A model generated the notes under the pieces. It searched no databases and was not told the origin of the DNA. It was given only the letters and a program-made list of their open reading frames with translations. The position numbers were made by a program, and so were the translations under genes. Shown here piece by piece: positions 73 through 43,129 of a DNA stretch of 44,029 nt (within the stretch, counting starts at the first letter, position 1; every line of letters begins with the position of its first letter). The DNA comes from Patescibacteria group bacterium (GTDB lineage Bacteria; Patescibacteriota; Gracilibacteria; JAYELJ01): positions 1 through 44,029 of the forward strand of contig JAYELJ010000049.1 of assembly GCA_034717395.1 (NCBI GenBank), in the 5' to 3' direction.

Positions 73-1188
73 ATGAAACATATCTTTCGCTTTATTCTCC
101 TATATCTATTTGTTTCTATCCCATCTGCACAAGCAGAGAGTTTTTTTGTAGATATCCCAGAAGATCATTGGGGTTATCCTTCTGCTCAATATGCTCAAGA
201 AAATAACTTTTTCAATATTGAAAACAAACAATTTCTTCCAACACAAGCTCTTACCCGTGGAGAAGTCGTTCAGATGATTCTTGTACAATCAGAAACAGAG
301 CTTATCACAACGATAGATACAACTTCTTCATTTTTAGATGTACAAACCGGGAGCTCTCTCTTTCCATATATCGAAACAGCCTATCAAAATGGTATCATCA
401 ATGGAGTTGGATCTGGAAGCTTTGCTCCTGATCAGCCAGTAACACGCGCACAATTCCTCAAAATCCTCTTTGAGACAAATCAAGATGTACCCCCAATAGA
501 CCTGATCAATAATTTTTCGGATATACAAGAGAGCCACTGGGCTATAGGCTATATTAGCTATGCAACCAACAAAAAGCTCGTATCTGGAATCAATGGAGAG
601 TTCAAACCAGATGAGCTAGTAACTCGCATACAAGGGGCAAAAATTCTATACCAATATGCTCACCCAGATAATAGCACGGATCAACCCAACACAAAACAAA
701 GCATACACAATACACAAGCATACGAAACTCTTCTGTGGTCTATGATCAATGCTTCTCGACAAGAAGAAGGAAAAGAAATATTAATACTAAACTCAGACCT
801 TTCAACAGCTGCCCGCCAACATGCACAATTTCTTGCAGAAAATAATTTAAGATCTAGCCATTGTGGCATTATCATCGAAGATAATCAAGAATGTCCTGAG
901 ACAGCTACTCCTTTTGCTCGTATTAGCGATGCGAATATTGAATATATATCTGCAGCAGAGAATATCTGATGGGCATCATCAAATACTCGATCAATCCTGG
1001 ATACTCTCTACCTTATCCACGCTGACAAAACATACGGAATGATTTCAGAACCAGAAAACGAAAACAATCATCGTGCCAATATCTTTGGAACATTCCACGA
1101 CTTCAATCAAATCGGTATAGGTATATACCTCAAAGAAACTGATGGGAAAAAAGAACTATTTATTGTGCAGAAATTTATCGAACAGTAA
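73..1188 (+). CDS. Secreted protein with three S-layer-homology (SLH) repeats and a C-terminal CAP/SCP (YkwD-like) domain
   Basis: Track ORF 73..969 has a signal-peptide-like N-terminus (MKHIFRFILLYLFVSIPSAQA) and three SLH-type repeats (F-x-D-[IV]..W....G..G.F.P...[LV]TR). It stops at TGA 967-969. The same frame stays open to TAA 1186-1188 and completes a CAP-like domain (AARQHAQFLAENN ... GWASSNTRS ... IGIGIY). Confidence 0.65.
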
Positions 1189-4472: not shown

Positions 4473-4539
4473 GCAACAACTTATGATAATCTAACTATAT
4501 AATCAGCATGAAAAAAACACAAAAATATGATATAATAAT

Positions 4540-6975
4540 ATGAAAAAATATTTCAAAACAAAAATAAAAATTCTGAAAAAAATACTCCAATACATATTGG
4601 TAGTGACCTTGGTAATCACTAATATACATATTCCGATAGAATACGGATATGCGAATGAAGCAGAGTTTCTTTCTATAACAACCAATGAAGATTCATATTT
4701 AGTGAATGAAAGCATACAGTACGATCTTGAATTTAAGACACCACAAGATATTTATGGAATCGAATTTACTATTCCCTATAACGCTGCTCTTCAGTACCCT
4801 TCTGACATATCTCCGGAAAACTCAATAGGAGACTACAGCATCATACAAAACGAACAAACCAAGAGAAAAGTTCTGTGGGATGAAACCCCATACGGAAAAC
4901 ACTTTACAGTCATTCAGAATAAAAATTATGGTTTCTTTTCTAAAGACTCTCCAATCATTTCATTCCATATCAATCCTTTATTAGCAGGGAACCAAACCTT
5001 CTCCCTTACAGATGTTTCTTTTATCAATAGCTCGATTGAAATTCAGAACCACAATGATATTAGCAAAAGCATACAAATCTCATTACCTGATATCAATGGT
5101 TTCAAATATGAGAGTATCGATGATAGTAGTATTAAAATATCTTGGGACGAAATAGAAAACACCTTGCTCGATTATTATATTATCTATAAAAAGGCCCAAG
5201 GTGATACGAGTTTCAGCGAATACAAAAAAGTAAATAATAATTATTTCTATGAAGATATCTTAGAGAAAAACAATACCGAATATAAAGTCATAGGAAGTTC
5301 TAATAATATCAGAAGCTCATTAAACTCTGCACCATCCCTACTGTTTTCTCATAATGATACTAACGCTCCAACTACAGTAAGCTACATTATAACTACCGAA
5401 TCGAATGAAGGAATTCATCTTCTCTGGCCAATGAATCCTGAAAAAGATATTCTTCATTACAATATTTGGAAACAGAGTCCAAACGAAGAATTTATCAACA
5501 TAGGTCAATCACAAAGCAATAGTTTTCTTGATACAGATGTTCAATACCAACAAACATATCAATACTTTATTACTGTTCAAGATAACAACCAAAATATTTC
5601 AAGTGATTCAGAAATTATCTCCATCACCTATTCTATAGAAAAAGAAACAAGTATTCCTATATCAGATAATTGTTCTGAGAATATGTATTTCAACTGAGAG
5701 ACTGAATCATGTGAACAGATTTCGGATTATCCTGAAAATATTATTTTCCTAGATGCTGATAATGATAATATGGATGATAGTTGGGAAACAAAGCACTGAT
5801 TAGACCCAACAGACCCAAATGATGCATACCAAGATCCAGATAAAGATCTTTTGCCAAATATACAAGAATTTAAATATCAAACAAAACCTCGATTAGCAGA
5901 CAGTGATAAAGATGGATTTTCTGATAATATGGAGGTTCTCGAATGATCTGATCCAAATGATCTATATAGCTATCCAACAGACAATAATATAAATGGCTTA
6001 CCAGATGGATTTGAAAACACGCTTATCAAACAAAACCTTATTGCTCAAGACCAAGAAGTAGAAAGATTACGATCTCTTGATACGGATGGTGATGGATTAA
6101 GTGATGAAAAAGAATTATTACTGGGTACTGACCCTGAAAACCCAGATACCGATGGAGATGGACTCAATGATTGATCAGAGATCCTTGAATATCAAACAGA
6201 TCCTCTTTCCTGGGACGATATCGATCTTCTCCTTCAAAATATCGAACACCCGATTATTACAAATATATGAAAACATAATATTACTACAGATAACCAGCCA
6301 GTAATTAAAGGATTCTATAAACCTGAAGCTACACTCCAATTCTTTGCTCAATATCGCAATACTATCGAAAAGATTGCGCTTGGAGAAGTAACTATAGAAG
6401 AAGATGGTATATTCTTCCTCAAATCAAACACAGAACTCTCCGATGGTGAAATTCATATAATTATGTATGAAGACCTTACTCAATCAGAAACAAAACATAC
6501 AGGAATATTAGAAATCAATAGCAGCTTATCTGTATCAGCCCCTCAAATACTACTATTTGAGGGAAGAAAAATTGATATACATAGTACAGACATCATCACA
6601 ACAACGAACCAACAACCAAAAGTATACGGAAACAGTTATTATGGAAGTGATATTCGTGCTACTTGGCAGAGTCTTATTACAAGCTCCAGTCTTATATCAG
6701 ATACCAATAGTGGATGATTTGAAATTAAACCACCAAAAAAATTAGAAGCAGGAGAAGAACATACACTATCAATCTATAGTATCACACCAGATTGAGTACA
6801 AAGCAAAACAATTCAATTACAATTCTTCATAACAAATACAGATAACTATCTATCAACAAATAGTCTTAAAATAAGCATGCAGAGCACCCCTCTGATATTA
6901 TTTGAACTCTTTTTAATTTTAATTAGCTGATTTCTCTTCTTCTTTCTTATTGTAAAGCGAAAAGAAAATACTTAA
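4540..6975 (+). CDS. Large cell-surface protein: N-terminal signal/anchor, cohesin-like domain, FN3-like domains, thrombospondin type-3 (Ca-binding) repeats, C-terminal TM anchor
   Basis: Track ORFs 4540..5697 and 6463..6717 are in the same frame. About 8 in-frame TGAs are present, for example 5797-5799 in H-G-LDPTDPND. Repeats follow the pattern D-x-D-x-D-G-x-x-D...GTDP ([34 protein letters not shown]). The C-terminus is hydrophobic and followed by KRKENT. Stop is TAA 6973-6975. Confidence 0.75.
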
Positions 6976-8352: not shown

Positions 8353-8470
<118 letters not shown>

Positions 8471-8514
8471 ATTACCCTCCTTTTTCTATATATATATAAT
8501 ATAGGGACAGTATA

Positions 8515-8590
8515 CAATAATTTATATTCAATATATGAGATGCATATCTATATCTTACCAGTAAATACTAGTTGATACAAGCAAACTAAA
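8515..8590 (-). other. 3' half of the long processing stem bracketing 23S rRNA
   Basis: This segment is reverse-complementary in blocks to 11574..11660. The shared blocks are attttttagttt, tatcaactagta, atgcatc and gaatataaattattg. Confidence 0.6.
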
Positions 8591-8591
8591 A

Positions 8592-11573
<2,982 letters not shown>

Positions 11574-11576
<3 letters not shown>

Positions 11577-11660
11577 TTTTAGTTTTAAATACTTATATCA
11601 ACTAGTAATTACTAGAGATACAGAAGATGCATCATCATATTCAGTGAATATAAATTATTG
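11574..11660 (-). other. 5' half of the 23S processing stem
   Basis: Pairs with 8515..8590 (see that entry). Confidence 0.6.
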
Positions 11661-11723
11661 CATTCTCTTTGTGATAAATACCACAAAGCCCTATATGTTA
11701 AAGATCAATTCGAAACACTTTTT

Positions 11724-11800
11724 TGGTGGAGCATAACGGATTCGAACCGTTGACCTCCTGCGTGCAAGGCAGGCGCTCTAGCCAACTGAGCTAATGCCCC
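11724..11800 (-). tRNA. tRNA-Ala (anticodon UGC), CCA encoded
   Basis: The reverse complement is ggggcattagctcagttggctagagcgcctgccttgcacgcaggaggtcaacggttcgaatccgttatgctccacca. It folds as a cloverleaf, carries the G3:U70 pair and has anticodon loop cttgcac. Confidence 0.95.
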
Positions 11801-11821
11801 AAATCCATTCTATTTTTCAAC

Positions 11822-11898
11822 TGGTGGGCGTACCTGGATTTGAACCAGGGACCTCATGATTATCAGTCATGCGCTCTAACCAGCTGAGCTATACGCCC
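11822..11898 (-). tRNA. tRNA-Ile (anticodon GAU), CCA encoded
   Basis: The reverse complement is gggcgtatagctcagctggttagagcgcatgactgataatcatgaggtccctggttcaaatccaggtacgcccacca. The anticodon loop is ctgataa. Confidence 0.95.
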
Positions 11899-11949
11899 AA
11901 ATCTATACAAACATAAATTTGTTAACAGCAATTTTTCAGATTTAACATC

Positions 11950-11968
11950 TGAAGTGTAATAGAGAAGT
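11950..11968 (-). other. 3' half of the 16S processing stem
   Basis: tgaagtgtaatagagaagt is the perfect reverse complement of 13631..13649. The pair brackets the 16S gene. Confidence 0.65.
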
Positions 11969-12058
11969 ACAACCAATAATAATCTCAATACATACCTATT
12001 ATAAATAATAAGTATGCTCAACCTAACTAAACATATAAATATGCTAGCTACTCCTTTG

Positions 12059-13570
<1,512 letters not shown>

Positions 13571-13930: not shown

Positions 13931-13967
13931 CAAAGTACTCACTTACCTTAACAAAAAACTCTAAATT

Positions 13968-16631
13968 ATGAACGATATTGTTCTTATATCTATATATGTT
14001 GTAACCTGATATAGCCTATGACTATATATAAGTTATCAGGTTATAAAATCTATTGTCTTACTCTACGTTAAAAAAAGAGCTCAAAACAACATTAAGTATC
14101 TACAAGAAGAAAGAGAAAAGATTATCATCAAGATCACCACACCCAAAACAAACAACAAATGACCAAGAATGACAGAGCAACTCCTAGAATCTCTTCACAG
14201 CCTATATAAAGACATATGATTCTGGGAGAGCTTCAAAGGAACTGACTATCAAGAACAATTTTCATTTGAGATTGTTCAAGAAAAAGGGAATATCACTTTC
14301 TATATATGGACATACAATGACCTCTATGAATTCCTTTCAAACCAGATTTATGCTCAATACCCCAATGCTGAAATAGAAATCAGTGATGACTATATAGAAT
14401 CTTTTCGTGATTTTCAATCAGGAGACATGGTAGAACTCGAGCTTGAAGAAAATGAACTTTACCCTGTAAAAACTTTCAATCTCCTACAAGGAGGAAGTAA
14501 AGACGAATCAATTGATTCTTTGTCTGCTCTTCTAGCCCCTCTTTCAAATCTAGACCACAAACAAGAAACTATTATATTTCAATACATATTGACCCCAGAG
14601 CATGAGAAATGGAAAGAGAGCTCTCATAAGCTTGAACTTGCCATTGAAAAACAAGAAACTATAGCAAATAAAATAGCATCAGCATCTAAATTCCCTTTGT
14701 TGCTTAACATAGCCCTTCTCCCTTTCTCTATATTAGTCAAAATTATTCAAAAACTTGGAAAAAAAGAAGAAAACACCGAAGAAGAACAAAAAGAAAGCAA
14801 AGGTCTCAGCGACAAGGACAAAGGAAAGATACAAGCATTACAACAAAAAGAAGAGAAACCAGCATTTAGATGTATCATTAGAGCAGCTTATCTCAGAAAA
14901 GATCAGGATAAATCTTTCTCTAAAACAAAGATGCAGTCTATTACTGGTTCATTTAGACAGTTTAACAGTCAACACAATTCATTCATTCATAAGAAGCCTT
15001 TTCTTAAAGAGGGGCTCTGGGGGAAAAAACGAGATCTATCTTTTAAAGAAATCTATTCATTACTTAAAACACGATCTTTCAATAAACCAGGGATTCTTCT
15101 TAACATCGAAGAGATAGCAAGCGTATATCATTTGCCCAATACAAATGTTAATGTACCGAATATCCAATACACACCATATCAGAAACTTGAAGCACCCGTA
15201 AATCTCCCAACACCAGAAAATACAGATGAAGCTCTTACCATGATGGGATATACCAATTTCAGAAATCAGAAGAAACTATTCGGAATGACACCGAATGACA
15301 GAAGACGACATCTCTATGTCATATGAAAAACAGGTATGGGGAAATCAACCATACTAAGCAACATGATTCATGAAGACATCCAGATGGGACGAGGGGTTTG
15401 TGTTATCGACCCTCATGGTGACCTTGCTGACGACGCATTAGCATCTGTTCCTAAACACAGAGTAAAAGATGTTGTTCTCTTTGATCCTTCTGACCGAGAT
15501 AATCCAGTAGCTCTGAATATGTTTGATAATGAAGACCCTAATAAAAAACCTCTTATTGCCTCTGGTATTGTAGCGGTACTAAAAAAACTCAATGCTGATT
15601 CATGGGGACCCAGACTCGAATATATTCTAAGAAACACTACACTAGCACTTCTCGACTTCCCTGGAAGCACATTTCTTGGAATACTCCGCATGTATACAGA
15701 CGAGTACTTTCGAAACAGAGTGGTTAAGGAAATTCAAGATCCTGTAGTAAAACGATTTTGGATCGAAGAATTTGGCAAGCTAGAACAAAAACAAATATTG
15801 GAACAAGTAGGGTCTATTCAAAACAAAGTAGGACAATTCTTATCTAATTCTATTATTAGAAATATATTAGGTCAGACCAAGAGTAGTATTGATATTCGAA
15901 AAATTATGGATGAAGGGAAGATACTGATTGTAAACCTCTCAAAAGGGAAGATTGGAGAAGATAATGCTACCCTGCTTGGATCTATGCTTATCACAAAAAT
16001 ACAGTTGGATGTAATGGGACGAGCTGACATGAAAGAAGAAGATCGAAAAGATTTCTATCTCTATGTGGATGAATTTCAAAACTTTGCTACTGATTCATTT
16101 GGAACTATACTTTCTGAAGCTCGTAAATACAAACTCAACCTTACCATGGCCAACCAATATGTTGCACAAATGCCTGATTCTGTAAGAGATGCCGTATTTG
16201 GAAACATTGGTTCTATGGTTACGTTTCAAGTAGGTGTAGATGATACCCCTCTATTTGTAAGACAATACGGAGAACAAGTTACAGAGACAGATCTTATGGA
16301 GATCGGGAAATTCAAATACTATACAAGAATGCTTATCAATGGTATGCCATCCAATCCATTCTCTGTTGATGCACTTCCACCACCACGAGATGAAGTGGAC
16401 CATAATACTATTATTGAAGCTATTCGATACTCACGAGACAACTATACAAAAAAATCTTCAGAGGTAGAAGAAGAAATTGATAGCTGGGAGAAAAAATATG
16501 AAGATCCAAAAAAAGGAGAGAAAGAAAAAAAACTTGCTGATAAAAAATCAGCATATGAAGCCAAAAAAGCACAGCTTATTAAAGAAGGGAAATGGGATCC
16601 CGCAGGATTTAACAAAAAGAAAAATGGATAA
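13968..16631 (+). CDS. Membrane-anchored VirD4/TraG/TraD-like (type IV coupling-protein-like) P-loop ATPase with a Lys/Glu-rich tail
   Basis: The frame from ATG 13968 is open through 5 in-frame TGAs and joins track ORFs 14427..15326 and 15336..16631. The N-terminus has a TM helix. TGA 15324-15326 supplies the first Gly of Walker A (YVI-G-KTGMGKST). A Walker B/TraM-recognition-type motif is present (FYLYVDEFQNFAT). Stop is TAA 16629-16631. Confidence 0.7.
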
Positions 16632-17998: not shown

Positions 17999-18862
17999 TT
18001 ATTCATCAATATGATAATTCGTATTTGTTACAAAAATAGTTTCAATTCATCAGGTATTTAAAGCACTTAGAACTTGATTATGAGGGTGTCTATATATATT
18101 ACCATCTCCAAACTGAATCACTCATGTTTGAGGATCTATATAAGAAAGCCAATCTGCAGAGGAACTAGAAGACGATCCATGATGAGCTAGTTGTAATATA
18201 TCTATATCCAGACCCTCTTGGTACCTATCCATAATGATGGATTCTATATCTTTTGATATATCTCAGGTAAGTAAGATAGCTCTATCATGAAATTGTATCT
18301 TATGCACCAGAGAAGTATTGTTTATATCCGGCACTCTTTTTTGAAATACAGCATGTCAGTCAAAAGGGTACAAAGTATCTATAAAAATATTATCTGATAC
18401 AGATAAGTCATCATTTATATCTCCTTGCACAATATTCATTCCTAGATTTTTTTCTTTTATAGAGGCTGATAGAACATTCTCATACAAAAGACTTTTCTTT
18501 AACACCCCTGTTATATGAAGGTTTTCAATATTGTATGTTTCGAGTAAATACAGCAATCATTCCATATGATCTCTATCTGGGTGACTTATATACACATGTT
18601 CTATGGTTCGATCCCAAAAAGGGATTTCTTTGGATAATGGGTGCGCTATATTTGCATAGGCTCCAGTATCAAATAAAAAATCTGTTCCATCTTCCAATCT
18701 CAACAGAAATGAGTGGCCTTGACCAACAGCTAAGAAGACACCTTTTTCTCTATCTTTTTTATATTCCAAAAAAATGAGAAAGAGAGATGAACAAGAAAAC
18801 AATACTGTTATTAGGATACGAAAACACATAAGAATTAGAAAATTACTATTATTTTTTGACAT
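17999..18862 (-). CDS. Membrane-anchored metallo-beta-lactamase-fold protein of the ComEC/Rec2 C-terminal type
   Basis: Track ORFs 18557..18862 and 18356..18556 continue in frame to TAA 17999-18001 through 6 in-frame TGAs. The N-terminus has a TM helix. Motifs are ISHPDRDHME-G and LQLAHHGSSSSS, as in ComEC beta-lactamase domains. Confidence 0.65.
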
Positions 18863-18936
18863 TATAGCGTCTTTCTACTAGAATGCATAGGCTTTGAAAA
18901 ATAGCTTCTGTTTTATTTCATATACTCTTTACTCAT

Positions 18937-33335: not shown

Positions 33336-33365
33336 AAAAACCTCAGCGATTTGCTGAGGTTTTTT
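33336..33365. terminator. Bidirectional terminator shared by ftsZ and the convergent nuclease gene
   Basis: Stem aaaaacctcagc / gctgaggttttt has a 5-nt loop. Confidence 0.6.
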
Positions 33366-33366
33366 C

Positions 33367-36300
33367 TTATTCAAATAAACTGTGTATCAAGTCAACTTCT
33401 TCCCCCTTATATTCTACACTCCATGCTTCTGGCTTGAGAACAATACGACCTACAGAATTGTACTGCGCCCGAGCAGAATGAATATCTAGAATATCTCACT
33501 TCTCGACAATCACTCCATCAGGACGAGAGACTTCTATATTTCCTAGTTGAAAACTCCATGCTGTTTTTTCTTCTATTGATTGGGTCAGAGAAAAATCTTT
33601 AAACAAATCTGTTTCTGAGAGAGTAACCTGTTCTGGATCAACTATAGGCTCTGGACGAATATCTGCTACAGACTTACTCAACACTTCTATCGTATCCCTC
33701 TTGTAAAGTTTAATAGTGAGTCCTTCTTTGGTTTTCCAATATTTTCCTGTCAAAAACACTTGATCTCCTTCTCAGATATTTCCGAGATCTCTTCCTATTG
33801 CATCCAGACGAAACACACGATTCCCAGCTGCAAAATACGCATGTTTCGAATCAAGAACTTTGGTAATAATCCCCTCTATTTCTATATCTTGTTTTTCATT
33901 TGAGAAAATAATCTCTGCAATATTTGAAATTTTCTTTCTGATGACTTTATTAGTGTGTATGAGGCCTTGAGAAGAAAGTGATTTTGTTTTTTTAGAAATG
34001 CTTTTTTGCGTATGTTCTATCTCTGTATCCAACCAATCCGAGAGTATTGTTTCTTTTATCTTAGTTACAAGGGAGACTTCTTGGTCCTCTTTTCTCTGTT
34101 CTTTTTCCTGTTTGAGAGATTGTTTTTCTTCTTTCGTTTTTTCCTGAGTGTTCGTCATATATTCAGATACTACACGATCTTGCTGTTGATCAGAAACGGG
34201 AGCCCAAAGACCAAGTTCATTTTCTCGAGCGAATATTTCAGCCTGGCGAAATGGTTCCATTTTTTCAAATGGATATTTGGTATAAGCAAATGCATACCCA
34301 TCTTCAAGAATTTTCTGATTATACAAAACACTATCAAGATACACATACCCAAGAATTCGATAATATCGATCAAAGATATCTTGATCAAACTCGATACGAA
34401 CCTGTGCTTCTGTTAATTTTTCTTTTGAATACCTGGAAGCTTCGATACCAAAATATTGTACTGTTTTACGAGGATCTACGGTCTCTGGAGTATCGATACC
34501 TATCATACGAACAGGAAACACTCACTGTTCATTATTACTACAAATAAAAGTATCTCCATCTATCACTCGGTCTACCTGACATTCTATAAAATCTTCTGAA
34601 AGAAACTCTTTTCTCTCAGGACTTGTTCGTTCTTTTCGAAAACGATTAGTGAGTGGATTACGAGTCCAAGATATGTTTTCTGTAGCGGTTCTATAACTTA
34701 CACATGAGTGTTGAATATCTTCTGTATCATAGAGACAATACTTCCCATCTTTATTGATCAAAGAAAAATCTACACCTTGGTCTCATTTTGTAGTTCCATT
34801 TGTGTAATATAGAAAATATGTATTTGGGTCTAACAATTGCGACTCTTTGACTGTATACTTCTTACCTTTCTTCTCATCCTGAAAATACCACCCTTTGATA
34901 GAACAAGACTGAGAATCTTTCGAGAGAAGCTCGATATACTCTTTTCCTTTATCTGGACCTTCTGGGTTAGGGAGAATCTCTGTAATTTGAATATCAGTAC
35001 AGGCTTTCTCTCAAGTATCATGAGAGATTTGAGTCTCATGGTTCGATGAAACAGAAGATCTATATGCAGCAGTATAAGACCCTCAGCCTCAGCCACTGGA
35101 AGGCTTTTGAGTAACTGACACTATATTTTCCAAACATGTTTCTGCAGAAAATTGATCTGTAACACAATACGTAACAGAATAATCTCAGACGACATCATAT
35201 GTATGCGCATTCGGGTTACGATATTCCGTGCCAAAACCAGCATATATAAATCCATCTCCAAAATCCCAAGAATAATAGAGATTACTTCATTGGTCTGGAT
35301 CTACTGTTCCATCTCCAGTGAGATTGAGGCTATACCCGGCATATATATCCCAAGAAGGTTTAGATCATTGAAGATTCCAAGAAGGAACAGGGACTTGGTT
35401 TTTGAGTAGTTCGACTGTGATACCTGTACTGCTCGATCCTCCGTAGCTATCTGACACGGTAAGAGTAATATCGTATAAACCTGAGCCTGTGTAACTTATT
35501 TCGAGAGGATTGTTGAAACTAGAACCTGTACCTCTCAGCACCGATCCGTTCCCGAAGTCCCAATCATAGTACAGAATATCCCCATCTGGGTCGGTGGAAT
35601 TCTCTCCGGTGATGTTGATAGATCCATTTTCTACTCCGAGAACCACTACTCCAGATGTGGAGAACTCAGCATTTCCTTGAAGATCTACCTGTGCCACAGG
35701 AACTGCATTAACCCAGGTGTTTTCTTCTCCTGGAGTTGGGTGATCAAATAGTTCAATACTTGCTCACGAAGAAAAATTTCGAATCCACGATTGATCTTCT
35801 CCTGTAATATCATAAGAAAAAGTATCTACAGAGTATCATTGATAAAAAAGTTCGAGCCAACCAGCGCTATTACTCAAATTGGATGCAGAAAATTCTTGCC
35901 AAAAATATGCATCCTCTAACCCATCAAACCAAACTAAAGGAATAATAATATATTCACCTGGTTGTATATATTCCGGAACTACTTCATAGAATATCAAATC
36001 AGAAAAATCTAAATTCCAATAAAAAGCATCTACCCCATCACTATTGGAGAGAGACAGATACATATCTTCCATTGCATATGACTGAACACCAGCATTATAT
36101 AACTCTATCCATTCATACCCAGTATCTGATCCTGTTGGATTTGCATACACCTCAGATACCCATAAAGGGACTGACTGCCAAACAAAAACCTCTTCTGTGA
36201 TTGCTTCTACTGATATATATGAACCTGACACGGTCCATACTGGAGAAAGCGTATAAGAAAGATCTGTATACACAGTAGCTCCTGTATCAAGAAATATGCC

Positions 36301-36957
36301 TGTGCCTGAGATATTCTCTGACAACAGAGCACACGTTCCTGAAACACAGCGATCTATATCAACCAGATACTCTATACCTGCAAAACTCTGACTCTGCTCC
36401 CAATACACCGAAATATCAGACCCAGAAATACTATATCCTCTACCAGACAAAACAATACCATCCAAAAAATCTATGGTGTTCGACTGACCTGGAGTTGCTA
36501 GCCCACCAGTGTATCCATAATAAGAAACCCAAGAATCACCAGCATCTGGAATACGACCAAGAGAATATCATTTTTCGAGAGAGGGAATAGCATCGGTTCC
36601 ATATTCTACAGTATCGATAATCGATCCAGAAGCATCTCTGAGTTCAACATGAGCTCAACCATTAGCCAAGGCTCTTTTTCATAGTGTTTGCAAAAAATAC
36701 CCAGTAGCTGATACCACATCTCCCGACTCAAAAGTATGTTTCTGTTTATCATTGGACCACACACTAGCACCACTGAGGTTTACCGACCCAGACCCTGAAT
36801 TATATATCTCAATCCACTCTTGCTCTCCTGATTCTGGGGCAGAAAGAAACTCGTTGATATATAACTGTGCAGATGCAGTACCATATCAACAAGTAATCAT
36901 ACATACTCCTACTATAAGAAAGGAGAATATCCGAGACAGATAAGAAGAGAATATCAT
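33367..36957 (-). CDS. Secreted multidomain nuclease: signal peptide, 3 lamin-tail domains (LTD), 2 PKD domains, staphylococcal-nuclease (SNase) domain, Lys/Glu-rich linker and an uncharacterised C-terminal domain (~1196 aa)
   Basis: One frame is open from ATG 36955-36957 to TAA 33367-33369 (3591 nt) through 16 in-frame TGAs. It joins track ORFs 35836..36465, 35365..35697, 34522..34761, 33772..34521 and 33496..33759. LTD motifs are LYINEFLSAPESGEQEWIEIYNSG, WVSEVYANPTGSDTGYEWIELYNAG and ITEILPNPEGPDKGKEYIELL. PKD motifs are DPDGDILYYDWDFGNG and YYSWDFGDG. SNase motifs are VRMIGIDTPE, DRYYRILGYVY and ARENELGLWA. Confidence 0.8.
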
Positions 36958-36992
36958 ACCTCTATTGTACGAATCGGAAAGTTTTGAGCAAG

Positions 36993-37024
36993 AAAAAACC
37001 ACATCCAAAGATGTAGTTTTAAAA
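36993..37024 (-). terminator. Rho-independent terminator after rplI
   Basis: On the minus strand, stem aaaactacatc / gatgtggtttt is followed by ttttcttg. Confidence 0.5.
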
Positions 37025-38256: not shown

Positions 38257-39828
38257 TTATTTCCTTGCTATTTTCTTTCCAAGCCCTGGAATTATAACAA
38301 ATACCACTACCGAGAAAAAGATAAAAAATACTGCAAGCCAATAATATTTAGAAACAGAAGCTGGCAGAACCTCTATATAGATATCTTGACTAATTTGTTC
38401 GCTGCTATTATCTATTGCTACAAGTTCAATACGATATACCCCTAAACTATCAAAGGAATAGGACAACTCCGTTTCATGAGACAGGAGTCTTCCTTGATAT
38501 AGCCACTGGAGAGATTCGATAGATCCATCTATATCATAGACATCCACGGCAGAGAGAGAAAACAATTCTCCTTTTTCTACCTGTACTGAATTGGGAATAT
38601 TCACAAAAACAGGAGCTTTATTATATCACTGAGTATCCTGGTTATCTCCTATTCCATCACTATCGGTATCTTTCCATTCTGTATTATCCAGAGGAAATAG
38701 ATCATCTATATCCGCTACTCCATCATTATCATCATCAGAGTCTTTTGTGTCTCCGATGCCATCCCCATCGGTATCTTTCCATTCTGATGGTTCATTTGGA
38801 AATGGATCTGCAAAATCTGCTACCCCATCATTGTCATCATCCATATCAGCATTATTTCCTATTCCATCGTTATCAGTATCTATAGACTCCGTTGGGTTGT
38901 AAGGGAACTGATCCTCCGAATCAAGAACACCATCATTGTCCATATCAGGATTGGTGGGATCCAACCCTTTTTCTATCTCCTGCGTATCAGATATACCATC
39001 GTTATCATCATCAGCATCTTTTGCATCTCCGATACCATCTCCATCTGTATCTGCTACTTCTTCTTTATCTGTTGGAAAAGCATCAACTATATCATCAACT
39101 CCATCATTATCATCATCAGCATCTTTTATGTCTCCTAAACCATCTCCATCTGTATCTTGTACTTCTGTATCATCGAGAGGAAAATGGTCCTCTTTATCTG
39201 ATACACCATCTCTATCGGTATCATAATTAAGAGGGTTTGTGCCTCTTTGAATTTCCTCCTGATCGGTATATCCATCTCCATCATCGTCAATATCTGTATT
39301 GTTCCCAAGACCATCCCTATCGGTATCGAGCCATTCTGTTGGATCAAAAGGAAAATCATCATAAATATCTTCGACATTATCCCCATCATCATCTAAATCA
39401 TCTCTATCTCCGATCCCATCCCCATCAGTATCTATATCTACAAACATTTTTGAAAACAGCTGCTTAGTAACACTCCCATTGTATTCTACTATCTGAGCCT
39501 CGAAATCATGATCCCCATCTGTAGCGACCCAATCAAAAAACACTGTATCTGAAGATCCTGCTACCACTGAGATAGCCTGATCTACACCTACCTGCTGACC
39601 TCATTGCAAAGTATCAATCACACGAACGAGACCAGTCGCATCCTCATCTCCACTATTTGAAACTTTGATATAAATACGAACAGAATCTTCTGCTAAGATT
39701 TGCTCTGGAATATGCCAAACATCCGTAGAACGAATAAATAGATCAGTAGCAGCAAATGCAAAAGGAGCTGTTACTAACAAGCAACAACTTAGCACTACAG
39801 CCGACACTGTTTTTATCGATGTATACAT
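38257..39828 (-). CDS. Secreted, C-terminally anchored surface protein: signal peptide, CARDB-like domain, about 9-10 thrombospondin type-3 Ca-binding repeats, Ig/PKD-like domain, TM anchor
   Basis: Track ORFs 39601..39828, 38626..39567 and 38257..38604 are in the same frame. They are joined by TGA 39601-39603 and TGA 38626-38628. The total is 1572 nt. Repeats follow the pattern DTDGDGIGDxKDxDDDNDG. Stop is TAA 38257-38259. The ATG directly abuts the yebC stop (TAAATG). Confidence 0.75.
38640..39440 (-). repeat. Intragenic tandem array of about 105-nt (35-codon) Asp-rich repeat units
   Basis: For example, 39004..39051 and 39109..39156 match at about 42 of 48 positions by eye (atcatcatcagcatctttt...ccatctccatctgtatc). 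Further diverged copies lie near 38728 and 38830. Confidence 0.7.
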
Positions 39829-41021: not shown

Positions 41022-42008
41022 TTACAGGAAATTATAAGACATATAACTTACATAAAAAATGAGCAAGAGAATTCCTTCTGTCTTATTGATCGACATCCCC
41101 CTAATAGCAAAGATGTAAAACAGAAAACTTACCCCGAGGAGAATGAAAGCATCGAGCAACAATTTGGTATCAAACAAAAGAGGAGACACTGTTGCAGAAA
41201 TACCCAACACAAAGAGAAGATTGAATATATTTGACCCCACAACATTTCCTACTGCGAGATCGACTTCTCCTTTGCGGGCAGCAATGATCGAAGTCGCAAT
41301 CTCCGGGAGAGATGTTCCTATTGCAAGCACAAATAAACCAATCACTGACTCTGGTATAGCAAAATAATTTCCCAGCCAAGTAGCAGAATCAATAATCACG
41401 CTAGCTCCATACACCAAAGCAAGTAAGCCAAGGATGATATACACAAGACTTTTAGTAAGAGTAAGTGGTGGAATTTCTTCGTCTGGAGTAGCATCAGCAA
41501 ACTCTGCATCTGCAGTATCTTTTTTAGAGTTTTTTATAATAAAAAATAAGTACATCATAAACAGAGCAAGCCCTATGATATAGAGAATCCCTTCACTTCG
41601 AGAAATTATATTTTGTGTTATTCCTGGATTGATCCAGCTATCAAACATAAAGATCACTAACATTACCGTTGCCAGGAGCATATAGGGAATCTCTTTTTTC
41701 ACAGTACTTGATTGCACTTTAAGTACCGCAAAGAGACTCGCAAGACCAAGAACCAAAGCAATATTGGCAATATTCGAACCAATAATATTCCCAACCGCAA
41801 AATCATTTTGTCCAGACATGCTGGCACTGAGAGACACCATCAGCTCAGGAAGCGATGTTCCAAGAGAAATAATAGTCAGCCCAATAATCACAGTAGGAAT
41901 TCCAAACCCTCGAGCAATAGATGAAGAACCCTCCACCAACTTATCTGCCCCTCCAATAAGAAGAATAAAACCTATAAATAGTAACCCTGATTGTATAAGA
42001 AGATCCAT
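41022..42008 (-). CDS. Ca2+/Na+ (CaCA/YrbG-family) antiporter
   Basis: Track ORF with two alpha-repeat motifs (GTSLPELMVSLSA..GNIIGSNIANI and GTSLPEIATSIIA..GNVVGSNIFNL). Confidence 0.85.
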   Translation of the reverse strand: MDLLIQSGLLFIGFILLIGGADKLVEGSSSIARGFGIPTVIIGLTIISLGTSLPELMVSLSASMSGQNDFAVGNIIGSNIANIALVLGLASLFAVLKVQSSTVKKEIPYMLLATVMLVIFMFDSWINPGITQNIISRSEGILYIIGLALFMMYLFFIIKNSKKDTADAEFADATPDEEIPPLTLTKSLVYIILGLLALVYGASVIIDSATWLGNYFAIPESVIGLFVLAIGTSLPEIATSIIAARKGEVDLAVGNVVGSNIFNLLFVLGISATVSPLLFDTKLLLDAFILLGVSFLFYIFAIRGMSINKTEGILLLIFYVSYMSYNFL

Positions 42009-42025
42009 TTGTATAGAGTGTATTA

Positions 42026-43129
42026 ACTAAAAATTCGTAAAATATCTTGGTAGGTAACCGATACCATAAACACAAGCAGCAGTATCATTCCTCCAGCATG
42101 AATATAATTTTCCCATTTCACTGAAAGACCACGCCCAATGACTCACTCTATCAGAAGAAAGAATGCGCGACCCCCATCCAAAGCAGGGAATGGAAGTGCA
42201 TTGAGCACCGCGAGAGAAATAGATATCAGAGCAAGGAATTTGAGCCCTTCGGTCCACCCAGCATCTGCTGCAGCAGATGTCATCTGTACAATACCCACTG
42301 GACCAGAAAGACCTTCTGGAAGAGCAAATGATTCTATAAGTGTATTAAATAGCGTCACAAAACCTTGGATTGATCTATCTACTAGGTGTATCGCATCTTG
42401 GCAAGAGGTGATAAATGCATCCACTATCCCTAGCTGGATTTTATCGAGCTCTATACCAAGAACCAGCATCATCCCGAGCTTTCCTGTGCTATCAGGGGTA
42501 GCAGTTATTTGAATCAGATCTTCTGATTCTCCTCGTTTAATATCCAGAATAAATTGAGATTTGTCTTGTATTGCTTGCTGATAGGTTTCAAGATCACGAA
42601 CTTGAATGTCATCTATGGAAACAATCAGGTCACCAGATATCAGACCAATATCTTCTGCCAAAGAACCTTCTATCACCTGGTGTACCATAATCGAAGCATC
42701 TTTTTCTTCGATCATTTGATTATAGTATTGATTTCCTTCCATCGGTGTCACTCCTATCATATACGCTGTCATCATGATCCCAATCGCAGCAATAAAATTG
42801 AATATCACTCCTGCTGAGATGATAAGCAACCTCTGCCAAGGATTTTTCCCGGTATACGAATCAGGCTGATCGGATATTTCCAGATCTTTTTTAGGATCAA
42901 AATCTGATTGCCCTTTGAGCTGAACAAAACCCCCAATAGGAAGCCAATTGAGAGAGTAAATAGTATCTCCAATTTTCTTTCCCCACGCACGAGGAGGCAT
43001 CCCGATTCCAAACTCTTCCACTTTGACCCCTGTTACCCTTGCAGCCAAATAATGACCCAGCTCATGGATAAATATAAGAAAAGAAAATCCAAGAACTACA
43101 AATAAAATATTTAAAATCGTATCGAACAT
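42026..43129 (-). CDS. rseP: RIP site-2 metalloprotease RseP (M50 family)
   Basis: Track ORF 42143..43129 carries HELGHYLAA, a PDZ region and NALPFPALDGG. The frame continues through TGA 42143-42145 to TAG 42026-42028 and adds the last TM helix. Confidence 0.88.

What the first reader, a model, noticed from the sequence alone, without database searches (positions are those of the whole stretch)
33367..36957. A ~1196-aa secreted LTD-PKD-SNase nuclease hidden behind 16 UGA codons
A single 3591-nt frame encodes the following, in order:
- a signal peptide;
- two lamin-tail domains, which are linked to extracellular nucleases and nucleic-acid or surface binding in other bacteria;
- two PKD domains;
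- a third lamin-tail domain;
- a complete staphylococcal-nuclease domain (VRMIGIDTPE ... DRYYRILGYVY ... ARENELGLWA);
- a Lys/Glu-rich linker (QEKTKEEKQSLKQEKEQRKEDQE);
- a C-terminal region of about 250 aa that I cannot assign.
In the standard-code track it looks like a field of unrelated small ORFs. For a reduced-genome CPR-type organism, a very large extracellular nuclease is a plausible tool for harvesting host or environmental DNA as a nucleotide source. This domain order and the unknown C-terminal module may be undescribed.
Basis: partly seen in the sequence, partly recalled or inferred. Interest (0 to 1): 0.75.

Follow-up and report, generated by a model that had tools for sequence, protein, structure and literature searches.

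The report
Secreted multidomain nuclease, UGA-as-glycine bacterium
This is a real, intact 1196-codon gene for an exported staphylococcal-type nuclease on a long stalk of binding domains, in a bacterium that reads UGA as glycine; it is an ordinary kind of enzyme, but the public annotation has cut it into fragments by using the wrong genetic code.

Summary
Window 33367-36957 is one frame of 1196 sense codons plus TAA. It holds 16 in-frame TGA and no TAA or TAG (chance about 1e-27).

All six catalytic and Ca-binding residues of S. aureus nuclease are kept. TGA falls on conserved Gly positions and never on Trp, so it is read as glycine (code 25).

GenBank holds this contig annotated with code 11. 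There the gene appears as a 244-aa "thermonuclease family protein" and an 87-aa hypothetical.

The domain order is not unique. Metagenomic proteins P0007 and P0010 and loci L025, L031 and L081 carry the same LTD-(PKD)-LTD-SNase core. LTD-bearing extracellular nucleases are already described (ExeM, and an Izemoplasma protein).

Only the last ~275 residues are orphan. They have no family hit and no sequence relative. Low-confidence models suggest a helical linker followed by an OB-like barrel.

The most likely role is extracellular breakdown of DNA and RNA for nucleotide salvage. That role is inferred, not shown.

Verdict: a new member of a known kind, of modest interest.

The parts
33367..36957 (-). 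Whole gene: ATG at 36957-36955, 1196 sense codons, TAA at 33369-33367. The 16 in-frame TGA codons are read as Gly.
   Evidence: TGA codons lie at 36886-8, 36679-81, 36655-7, 36568-70, 35836-8, 35764-6, 35365-7, 35287-9, 35185-7, 35089-91, 35083-5, 35011-3, 34783-5, 34522-4, 33772-4 and 33496-8.
36868..36957 (-). Probable Sec signal peptide (residues 1-30): MIFSSYLSR, then the hydrophobic stretch IFSFLIVGVCMIT, then CGYGTASA with cleavage before Q.
   Evidence: This is the only strongly hydrophobic 19-residue window in the protein. The A-S-A motif was read by eye. No SignalP run was possible.
36598..36879 (-). Lamin-tail domain 1 (residues 27-120)
   Evidence: Pfam PF00932, 59.3 bits, E 5.6e-16.
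36160..36597 (-). Unassigned region between LTD1 and LTD2 (residues 121-266)
   Evidence: No Pfam or NCBIfam hit. No paralogue in the window.
35812..36159 (-). Lamin-tail domain 2, divergent (residues 267-382)
   Evidence: PF00932, 29.7 bits, E 9e-7. This is below the stand-alone cut-off of 34.3.
35413..35634 (-). PKD domain 1 (residues 442-515)
   Evidence: PF18911 47.9 bits and PF00801 42.4 bits.
35113..35346 (-). PKD domain 2 (residues 538-615)
   Evidence: PF18911 37.3 bits and PF00801 37.1 bits. The TGA at codon 591 sits on the conserved PKD glycine: 57 of 79 aligned homologues have G there.
34693..35004 (-). Lamin-tail domain 3 (residues 652-755)
   Evidence: PF00932, 49.7 bits, E 5.6e-13.
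34195..34566 (-). Staphylococcal-nuclease (SNase, thermonuclease) catalytic domain (residues 798-921)
   Evidence: PF00565, 81.6 bits. Staphylococcal nuclease chains in the PDB match at E 8e-17. Residue mapping: D21 to D802, R35 to R817, D40 to D822, T41 to T823, E43 to E825, R87 to R867.
33892..34194 (-). Lys/Glu-rich linker, predicted helical (residues 922-1022)
   Evidence: Helices in the AF2 single-sequence model, at low confidence. No family hit.
33658..33891 (-). Beta-rich module, possibly an OB-fold (residues 1023-1100). Tentative.
   Evidence: Two AF2 models give 5-7 strands at pLDDT 51-73. The best Foldseek matches are nearly all OB-fold proteins (YgiW, LysRS N-domain, PAN/Mpa, IF1), but none reaches E 1e-3.
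33370..33657 (-). Orphan C-terminal tail (residues 1101-1196), with no transmembrane or sorting signal
   Evidence: Not modelled (pLDDT about 30). The only sequence matches among 1.84 billion representatives are the fragments of this same gene.
36995..37020 (-). Terminator-like hairpin after rplI (L9), upstream of the nuclease start
   Evidence: sequence. TTGCTC-N16-TACAAT follows it. The TACAAT ends 6 nt before the ATG. This was read by eye and was not flagged by the scan.
33336..33364 (.). Two-way terminator-like hairpin (A-run, 13-bp stem, T-run) between the converging stops of ftsZ and the nuclease gene

Best explanation
The region is one intact gene of a Patescibacterium that decodes UGA as glycine (code 25).

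Its 1196-aa product has a Sec signal peptide and is exported. No C-terminal membrane anchor or sorting motif is visible, so it is either released or held on the cell surface through its binding modules.

Three lamin-tail (Ig-like) and two PKD domains form an extended stalk or binding part. The SNase domain is the catalytic part. By homology it is a Ca2+-dependent, sugar-nonspecific endo/exonuclease that cuts DNA and RNA to 3'-phosphorylated mono- and oligonucleotides. A charged helical linker then leads to a beta-rich module, possibly an OB-fold, that would hold the nucleic-acid substrate.

The most likely physiological role is to break down environmental or host/prey nucleic acid outside the cell. 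That would give an organism expected to lack nucleotide synthesis something to salvage.

What is shown: gene integrity, code, domain order and catalytic residues. What is inferred: export, activity, substrate binding by the C-terminus, and the nutritional role.
For: - Gene integrity: 1196 codons with no TAA or TAG, p about 1e-27.
- Domains: significant LTD, PKD and SNase hits along the frame. NCBIfam thermonuclease NucI gives E 9e-34.
- Catalysis: all six catalytic and Ca-ligand residues of S. aureus nuclease are kept.
- Code: TGA sits on conserved Gly. G is the commonest residue in homologues at codons 101, 130, 591 and 625, and W never appears. The FtsA TGA aligns with G of solved FtsA.
- Housekeeping genes also carry in-frame TGA: FtsA, SecY, RseP, a Mur ligase, HisRS and RelA/SpoT.
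- Export: hydrophobic N-terminus with an ASA site, and 10 of the 12 cysteines lie as close pairs within the extracellular-type domains. The signal peptidase I gene lies two genes upstream.
- Transcription: terminator-like hairpins bracket the gene.
- Analogues: ExeM has LTD plus OB regions plus a nuclease domain (PMC6085458). An Izemoplasma 1049-aa protein with LTD, a nucleic-acid-binding domain and a nuclease domain sits in DNA-degradation loci (PMC8289736).
- Need for salvage: the Absconditabacterium Vampirococcus lacks nucleotide synthesis and is thought to live on host DNA (PMC8080830).
Against: - No activity, expression or localisation data exist.
- SignalP was not run.
- The OB-fold reading rests on models with pLDDT about 45 and Foldseek E >= 0.018.
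- No nucleotidase, phosphatase or nucleoside transporter lies beside the gene in this window, unlike the Izemoplasma loci.
- In Saccharibacteria, comEC was dispensable for growth. This weakens the general claim that CPR bacteria feed on DNA (PMC10633639).
- In ExeM, the LTD was dispensable for DNA degradation.
- No orthologue of the full protein was found, so conservation of the architecture within its own lineage is unknown.
Confidence: 0.72

Rival explanations
1. It is a host- or prey-directed weapon or adhesin. The LTD/PKD stalk and the orphan C-terminus would bind the host cell surface. The nuclease would then degrade host nucleic acids at the contact site, as part of an epibiotic or predatory lifestyle, rather than foraging on free DNA.
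For: Absconditabacteria such as Vampirococcus are predatory epibionts with large PKD-bearing surface proteins (PMC8080830). The window encodes other large surface proteins (TSP3 repeats, SLH). The C-terminal module is lineage-specific, as host-recognition parts often are.
Against: No toxin-delivery domain, anchor or immunity gene was seen. The lifestyle of this organism is unknown. This reading overlaps with the best explanation: same enzyme, different substrate source.
Confidence: 0.18
2. It is a competence-associated nuclease. It would nick or cut incoming duplex DNA at the surface to feed the type IV pilus/ComEC uptake route, in the manner of EndA or NucA.
For: Com genes are widespread in CPR bacteria. 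The window holds a membrane protein with a metallo-beta-lactamase domain, resembling the C-terminal domain of ComEC, at 18002-18874.
Against: Known competence nucleases belong to other folds and are small and membrane-bound. This protein has no anchor and is not next to com genes. Staphylococcal nuclease degrades DNA and RNA to small 3'-nucleotides, which does not suit preserving a strand for uptake.
Confidence: 0.07
3. It is not one gene. It is either a decayed pseudogene or a set of separate short genes, as in the public code-11 annotation. Alternatively, UGA is read as Trp (code 4).
For: GenBank lists a 244-aa and an 87-aa protein here.
Against: All 16 interruptions are TGA and none is TAA or TAG. 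Domain matches run across the TGA codons. Essential genes in the window have in-frame TGA too. TGA aligns with conserved Gly and never with Trp, and Trp is still encoded by 25 TGG codons in this gene.
Confidence: 0.02

Closest known systems
Staphylococcus aureus nuclease A / thermonuclease family (Pfam PF00565; PDB 1STN, 1EY0 and others)
   Same: The catalytic domain matches at E 8e-17. D21, R35, D40, T41, E43 and R87 are all conserved. It is secreted through an N-terminal signal peptide.
   Different: The staphylococcal enzyme is a single domain of about 150 aa. Here the domain sits at residues 798-921 of a 1196-aa protein. The NCBIfam NucI equivalog score is 116 against a cut-off of 250, so this is not an orthologue.
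Uncharacterised metagenomic LTD-(PKD)-LTD-SNase proteins: P0007 (1145 aa), P0010 (1173 aa), P0027 (1012 aa), and loci L025, L031, L081
   Same: They share the same order of modules. P0010 aligns collinearly with residues 521-903 (90 bits), P0007 with 647-924, and L031 with 541-919.
   Different: Those proteins use the standard code. After SNase they continue with another LTD and, where the end of the protein is seen, a C-terminal transmembrane anchor. This protein instead has a K/E helical linker and an orphan beta-rich tail with no anchor. Identity is only 24-29%.
ExeM / Xds extracellular nuclease of Shewanella and Vibrio (PMC6085458)
   Same: It is a signal peptide plus an N-terminal LTD plus nucleic-acid-binding (OB) regions plus a nuclease domain, and it degrades extracellular DNA.
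   Different: Its catalytic domain is of the endonuclease/exonuclease/phosphatase type, not SNase. It has one LTD, no PKD, and a GlyGly-CTERM anchor. The NF033680 model scores 14 bits against a cut-off of 1300.
Bacillus subtilis YhcR, and the Ca. Izemoplasma 1049-aa LTD/nucleic-acid-binding/nuclease protein (PMC8289736)
   Same: Both are large secreted nucleases that combine binding modules with a nuclease domain, and both are linked to nucleic-acid scavenging.
   Different: From my own knowledge, YhcR adds a 5'-nucleotidase domain and an LPXTG anchor; neither is present here. The Izemoplasma gene sits in a locus with nucleotidases and transporters. This gene sits between rplI and ftsZ.

Membership tests
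SNase / thermonuclease superfamily (PF00565) | Significant match to the family model over its whole length | tested here: met
   76.3-81.6 bits against a cut-off of 21, covering profile positions 2-106 of 107.
SNase / thermonuclease superfamily (PF00565) | Catalytic Arg35, Glu43 and Arg87, and Ca2+ ligands Asp21, Asp40 and Thr41 (S. aureus numbering) | tested here: met
   They align to R817, E825, R867, D802, D822 and T823.
SNase / thermonuclease superfamily (PF00565) | Ca2+-dependent DNase/RNase activity | not testable with these tools
   This needs expression of a UGA-recoded construct.
Staphylococcal NucI / EcnA equivalogs (NCBIfam NF047694, NF047969) | Score above the equivalog cut-off | tested here: not met
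   116.5 against 250, and 60.4 against 180. It is a family member, not an orthologue.
Lamin-tail domain (PF00932) | Model match above the gathering score | tested here: met
   Whole protein 123.7 bits. Copies 1 and 3 score 59.3 and 49.7 bits. Copy 2 scores 29.7 bits, below 34.3 on its own.
PKD domain (PF18911 / PF00801) | Model match above the gathering score, in two copies | tested here: met
   47.9 and 37.3 bits against a cut-off of 27.
ExeM/Xds-type extracellular nuclease (NF033680) | EEP nuclease domain, GlyGly-CTERM anchor, and score above the model cut-off | tested here: not met
   14.2 bits against 1300, matching the LTD only. There is no C-terminal hydrophobic segment.
OB-fold nucleic-acid-binding module (PF01336 / YgiW-like), for residues 1023-1100 | Sequence or confident structural match to an OB-fold | tested here: inconclusive
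   No Pfam or NCBIfam hit even at E 10. hhalign against OB regions of P0017, P0042 and P0128 gives P >= 0.01. The AF2 models have pLDDT about 45. The top Foldseek hits are OB-folds, but with E >= 0.018.
Genetic code 25 (UGA = Gly; Gracilibacteria/Absconditabacteria) | In-frame UGA in essential genes, falling on conserved glycine positions | tested here: met
   By eye: the first Gly of the Walker A motif in the ATPase at 13965-16628, and the H-x-H-x-D-H...G and LTGD motifs of the MBL protein.
Genetic code 25 (UGA = Gly; Gracilibacteria/Absconditabacteria) | tRNA-Gly with anticodon UCA and no release factor 2 | not testable with these tools
   The only tRNAs in the window are Ala(UGC) and Ile(GAU). 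The rest of the genome is not available.
Sec-exported protein | Cleavable N-terminal signal peptide | tested here: inconclusive
   Hydropathy and an A-x-A site support it. No dedicated predictor was available.

The most novel reading that the evidence does not exclude
The last ~175-275 residues have no relative among 1.84 billion representative proteins. They could be a new lineage-specific module that targets the nuclease to a particular host-cell surface or nucleic-acid form. That would make this a contact-dependent predatory nuclease of a code-25 epibiont, not a general DNA forager.
Probability: 0.1. Interest if true: 0.55.

Novelty: new member of a known kind. Interest (0 to 1): 0.3.

Why it matters
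There are two practical points.

First, the public record of this genome was annotated with the standard code. This gene, and every other gene with UGA, is therefore broken into fragments there. The nuclease is visible only as a 244-aa "thermonuclease family protein". Re-annotating with code 25 would change the predicted proteome of this MAG.

Second, published models of how Absconditabacteria get nucleotides rely on pilus/ComEC uptake of host DNA and do not mention an extracellular nuclease (PMC8080830). A large exported SNase enzyme gives a testable alternative or complementary route. The enzyme class and the module logic are already known, so the advance is incremental.

Tried and rejected
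- The + strand reading is full of stops.
- Exhaustive phmmer of the C-terminal 237 aa against 1.84 billion representatives returned only the two fragments of this same gene. One caveat applies: relatives in code-25 genomes are themselves fragmented in such libraries, so short pieces could be missed.
- Pattern scan of GTDB genomes with the whole protein found no orthologue and not even the source genome. It found only LTD/PKD-level matches in Bacteroidota, Melioribacter, Saccharibacteria and others.
- Metagenome scan with the C-terminus found nothing.
- Metagenome scan with an SNase alignment gave 80 loci. Code-25-aware ORF calling on them found no match to residues beyond 960. The long "TGA-rich" ORFs there (L069, L040, L048, L061, L034) are read-through artefacts in high-GC, standard-code contigs.
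- hhalign and phmmer of the C-terminus against OB regions of the LTD-OB proteins P0017 and P0042 were not significant.
- PDB sequence search and NCBIfam on the C-terminus and on the 150-275 region (which spans the unassigned residues 121-266) found nothing.
- The two AF2 single-sequence models were both of low confidence.
- No paralogous module exists elsewhere in the window.
- A lipoprotein signal was considered and rejected. Neither Cys19 nor Cys23 has a canonical lipobox.
- Taxonomy finer than "code-25 Patescibacteria" could not be obtained, because no rRNA reference library was available.
Full report
**1. The observation**

The coordinates are right, but the gene is on the minus strand. 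The + strand translation of 33367-36957 is full of stops. The reverse complement reads as a single frame.

The frame has 1196 sense codons and ends in TAA. It is interrupted by 16 TGA codons and by no TAA or TAG. With the local base composition, the chance of 1196 codons free of TAA and TAG is about 1e-27. In 200 shuffles of 10 kb, the longest such run was 229 codons.

Under code 11 the region is a scatter of ORFs of 40-249 aa.

**2. The genetic code**

TGA is a sense codon in this organism, and it is read as glycine.

I aligned the protein, with X at the TGA positions, to 189 database homologues. At the informative positions glycine is the commonest residue:
- codon 101: 12 of 24
- codon 130: 5 of 11
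- codon 591, the invariant PKD glycine: 57 of 79
- codon 625: 8 of 17

Tryptophan never appears at any TGA position. Trp is still encoded by 25 TGG codons in this gene.

Housekeeping genes in the window also carry in-frame TGA: FtsA, SecY, RseP, a Mur ligase, HisRS and RelA/SpoT. The FtsA TGA aligns with a Gly in solved FtsA structures.

No tRNA-Gly(UCA) lies in the window. The only tRNAs are Ala and Ile, inside a 16S-Ile-Ala-23S-5S operon. The tRNA side of the argument is therefore untested.

**3. The public record**

GenBank already holds this contig (48.5 kb), labelled "Patescibacteria group bacterium". It was annotated with the standard code. The gene appears there as MEA3304598.1, a 244-aa "thermonuclease family protein", and MEA3304597.1, an 87-aa hypothetical protein. 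Both are 99-100% identical to pieces of this frame. The full-length protein is not in the 15-billion-protein collection.

**4. Anatomy**

Pfam gives the following:

| Module | Residues | Score |
|---|---|---|
| LTD 1 | 27-120 | 59 bits |
| LTD 2 (divergent) | 267-382 | 29.7 bits, E 9e-7 |
| PKD 1 | 442-515 | 47.9 bits |
| PKD 2 | 538-615 | 37.3 bits |
| LTD 3 | 652-755 | 50 bits |
| SNase | 816-919 | 82 bits |

NCBIfam's staphylococcal NucI model matches residues 788-918 at E 9e-34, but well below its equivalog cut-off.

Aligned with S. aureus nuclease, the Ca2+ ligands D21, D40 and T41 and the catalytic residues R35, E43 and R87 correspond to D802, D822, T823, R817, E825 and R867.

The N-terminus is the only strongly hydrophobic segment and ends in A-S-A before Q31. 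There is no C-terminal hydrophobic anchor. Ten of the 12 cysteines lie as close pairs inside the extracellular-type domains, and the other two are in the signal peptide.

Residues 121-266 have no family match.

**5. The C-terminus**

Residues 922-1196 have no Pfam or NCBIfam hit, even at E 10, and no PDB sequence hit. An exhaustive phmmer search of 1.84 billion representatives returned only the fragments of this same gene.

Two AlphaFold single-sequence models were poor, with mean pLDDT 45 and 44. They agree on long helices up to about residue 1020 and a 5-7-strand module at about 1023-1100 with pLDDT 51-73. The last 95 residues are not modelled.

Foldseek against the PDB gave no match at E <= 1e-3. 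The top lists are almost entirely OB-fold proteins: the coiled-coil-plus-OB N-domains of proteasomal ATPases, YgiW, the anticodon-binding OB of LysRS and AsnRS, Ten1 and IF1.

An OB-fold after a nuclease domain would fit the pattern of ExeM and YhcR, and LTD proteins P0017 and P0042 end in PF01336 OB-folds. Direct comparisons with those were not significant. I therefore call the module "possibly OB-like" and the tail unassigned.

**6. Context**

The gene is the last in a same-strand run: Mur ligase, RseP, Ca2+/Na+ exchanger, YebC, a secreted TSP3-repeat protein, signal peptidase I, ribosomal protein L9, then the nuclease. It converges on ftsA-ftsZ.

A terminator-like hairpin follows rplI. A two-way hairpin separates the nuclease and ftsZ stops. 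The gene therefore looks like its own transcription unit. No nucleotidase, phosphatase or nucleoside transporter is adjacent.

**7. Relatives and novelty**

The domain order is not unique.
- P0007 has the order LTD, PKD, LTD, SNase, LTD, then a transmembrane anchor.
- P0010 aligns collinearly with residues 521-903, and P0007 with 647-924.
- P0027 has LTD, SNase, LTD.
- A metagenome scan added L031 (LTD-PKD-LTD-SNase-LTD, collinear with 541-919), L025 (1049 aa) and L081.

All of these use the standard code and differ after the SNase domain. None matches residues beyond 960.

No close orthologue was found in GTDB species genomes or in JGI metagenomes.

In the literature, ExeM combines an LTD, OB regions and a nuclease domain (PMC6085458). 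Ca. Izemoplasma DNA-degradation loci encode a 1049-aa protein with a lamin-tail domain, a nucleic-acid-binding domain and a nuclease domain (PMC8289736).

This is therefore a new member of a known kind. Its one original part is an orphan tail.

**8. Function**

By homology, the protein is an exported Ca2+-dependent nuclease acting on DNA and RNA.

CPR bacteria, including the Absconditabacterium Vampirococcus, lack nucleotide synthesis and are thought to live on host DNA taken up through pili and ComEC. That paper mentions no extracellular nuclease (PMC8080830). An exported SNase would supply small 3'-nucleotides for salvage. That is the role I consider most likely.

The rivals are a host-directed contact weapon and a competence helper.

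Two cautions apply. In Saccharibacteria, comEC is not needed for growth (PMC10633639). In ExeM, the LTD is dispensable for DNA degradation. No experiment bears on this protein itself.

**9. Verdict**

- Observation: confirmed.
- Interpretation: partly supported. The claim of an undescribed domain order fails. The unknown C-terminus stands.
- Interest: modest. The main practical consequence is that the public annotation of this genome uses the wrong code.

Noticed in passing
whole window; GenBank proteins MEA3304597.1 and MEA3304598.1: The public record of this contig (48.5 kb, 'Patescibacteria group bacterium') was annotated with the standard code. Every gene that contains UGA is split or truncated there.
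   Followed up: partly
window 18002-18874 (-): A protein of about 290 aa with an N-terminal membrane segment and a metallo-beta-lactamase domain (PF00753, 36 bits). It has 6 in-frame TGA, several on conserved Gly of the H-x-H-x-D-H...G and LTGD motifs. It resembles the C-terminal domain of ComEC without the channel part.
   Followed up: partly
window 38260-39828 (-) and 4495-6972 (+): Two large secreted proteins with thrombospondin type-3 (Ca-binding) repeats and C-terminal transmembrane anchors. One lies three genes upstream of the nuclease, near a Ca2+/Na+ exchanger (41025-42026). The nuclease is expected to need Ca2+, but the link is only positional.
   Followed up: partly
window 13965-16628 (+): An ATPase of about 820-888 aa of the HerA / TrwB-TraD coupling-protein type (DUF87, TrwB_AAD_bind, TraG-D_C). 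A TGA sits on the first Gly of its Walker A motif.
   Followed up: partly
window 73-1185 (+): [quoted passage not shown] SLH proteins are noted as typical of Absconditicoccaceae in bioRxiv 10.1101/2024.03.08.584096.
   Followed up: partly
window 36957-36992 (-): TTGCTC-N16-TACAAT lies just upstream of the nuclease start, and the TACAAT ends only 6 nt before the ATG. A transcript starting there would be leaderless or nearly so. The AGAGG before the ATG is too close to act as a normal ribosome-binding site.
   Followed up: no
window 8354-13569 (-): A complete rRNA operon: 16S, tRNA-Ile(GAU), tRNA-Ala(UGC), 23S, 5S. Its G+C is about 44%, against about 35% elsewhere in the window. The 23S match spans 2995 nt for a 2925-position model.
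   Followed up: no
loci L025, L031, L081; proteins P0007, P0010, P0027: A recurring, unnamed family of 1000-1170-aa metagenomic proteins with LTD-(PKD)-LTD-SNase-LTD. Where the C-terminus is seen, they end in a transmembrane anchor. It appears uncharacterised in the literature searched.
   Followed up: partly
window 35083-35100 (-), residues 620-626: A Gly run, S-G-G-G-G-G-S, in the PKD2-LTD3 linker is encoded as GGN-TGA-GGN-TGA-GGN. Two of the 16 TGA codons therefore sit inside a poly-glycine linker.
   Followed up: no
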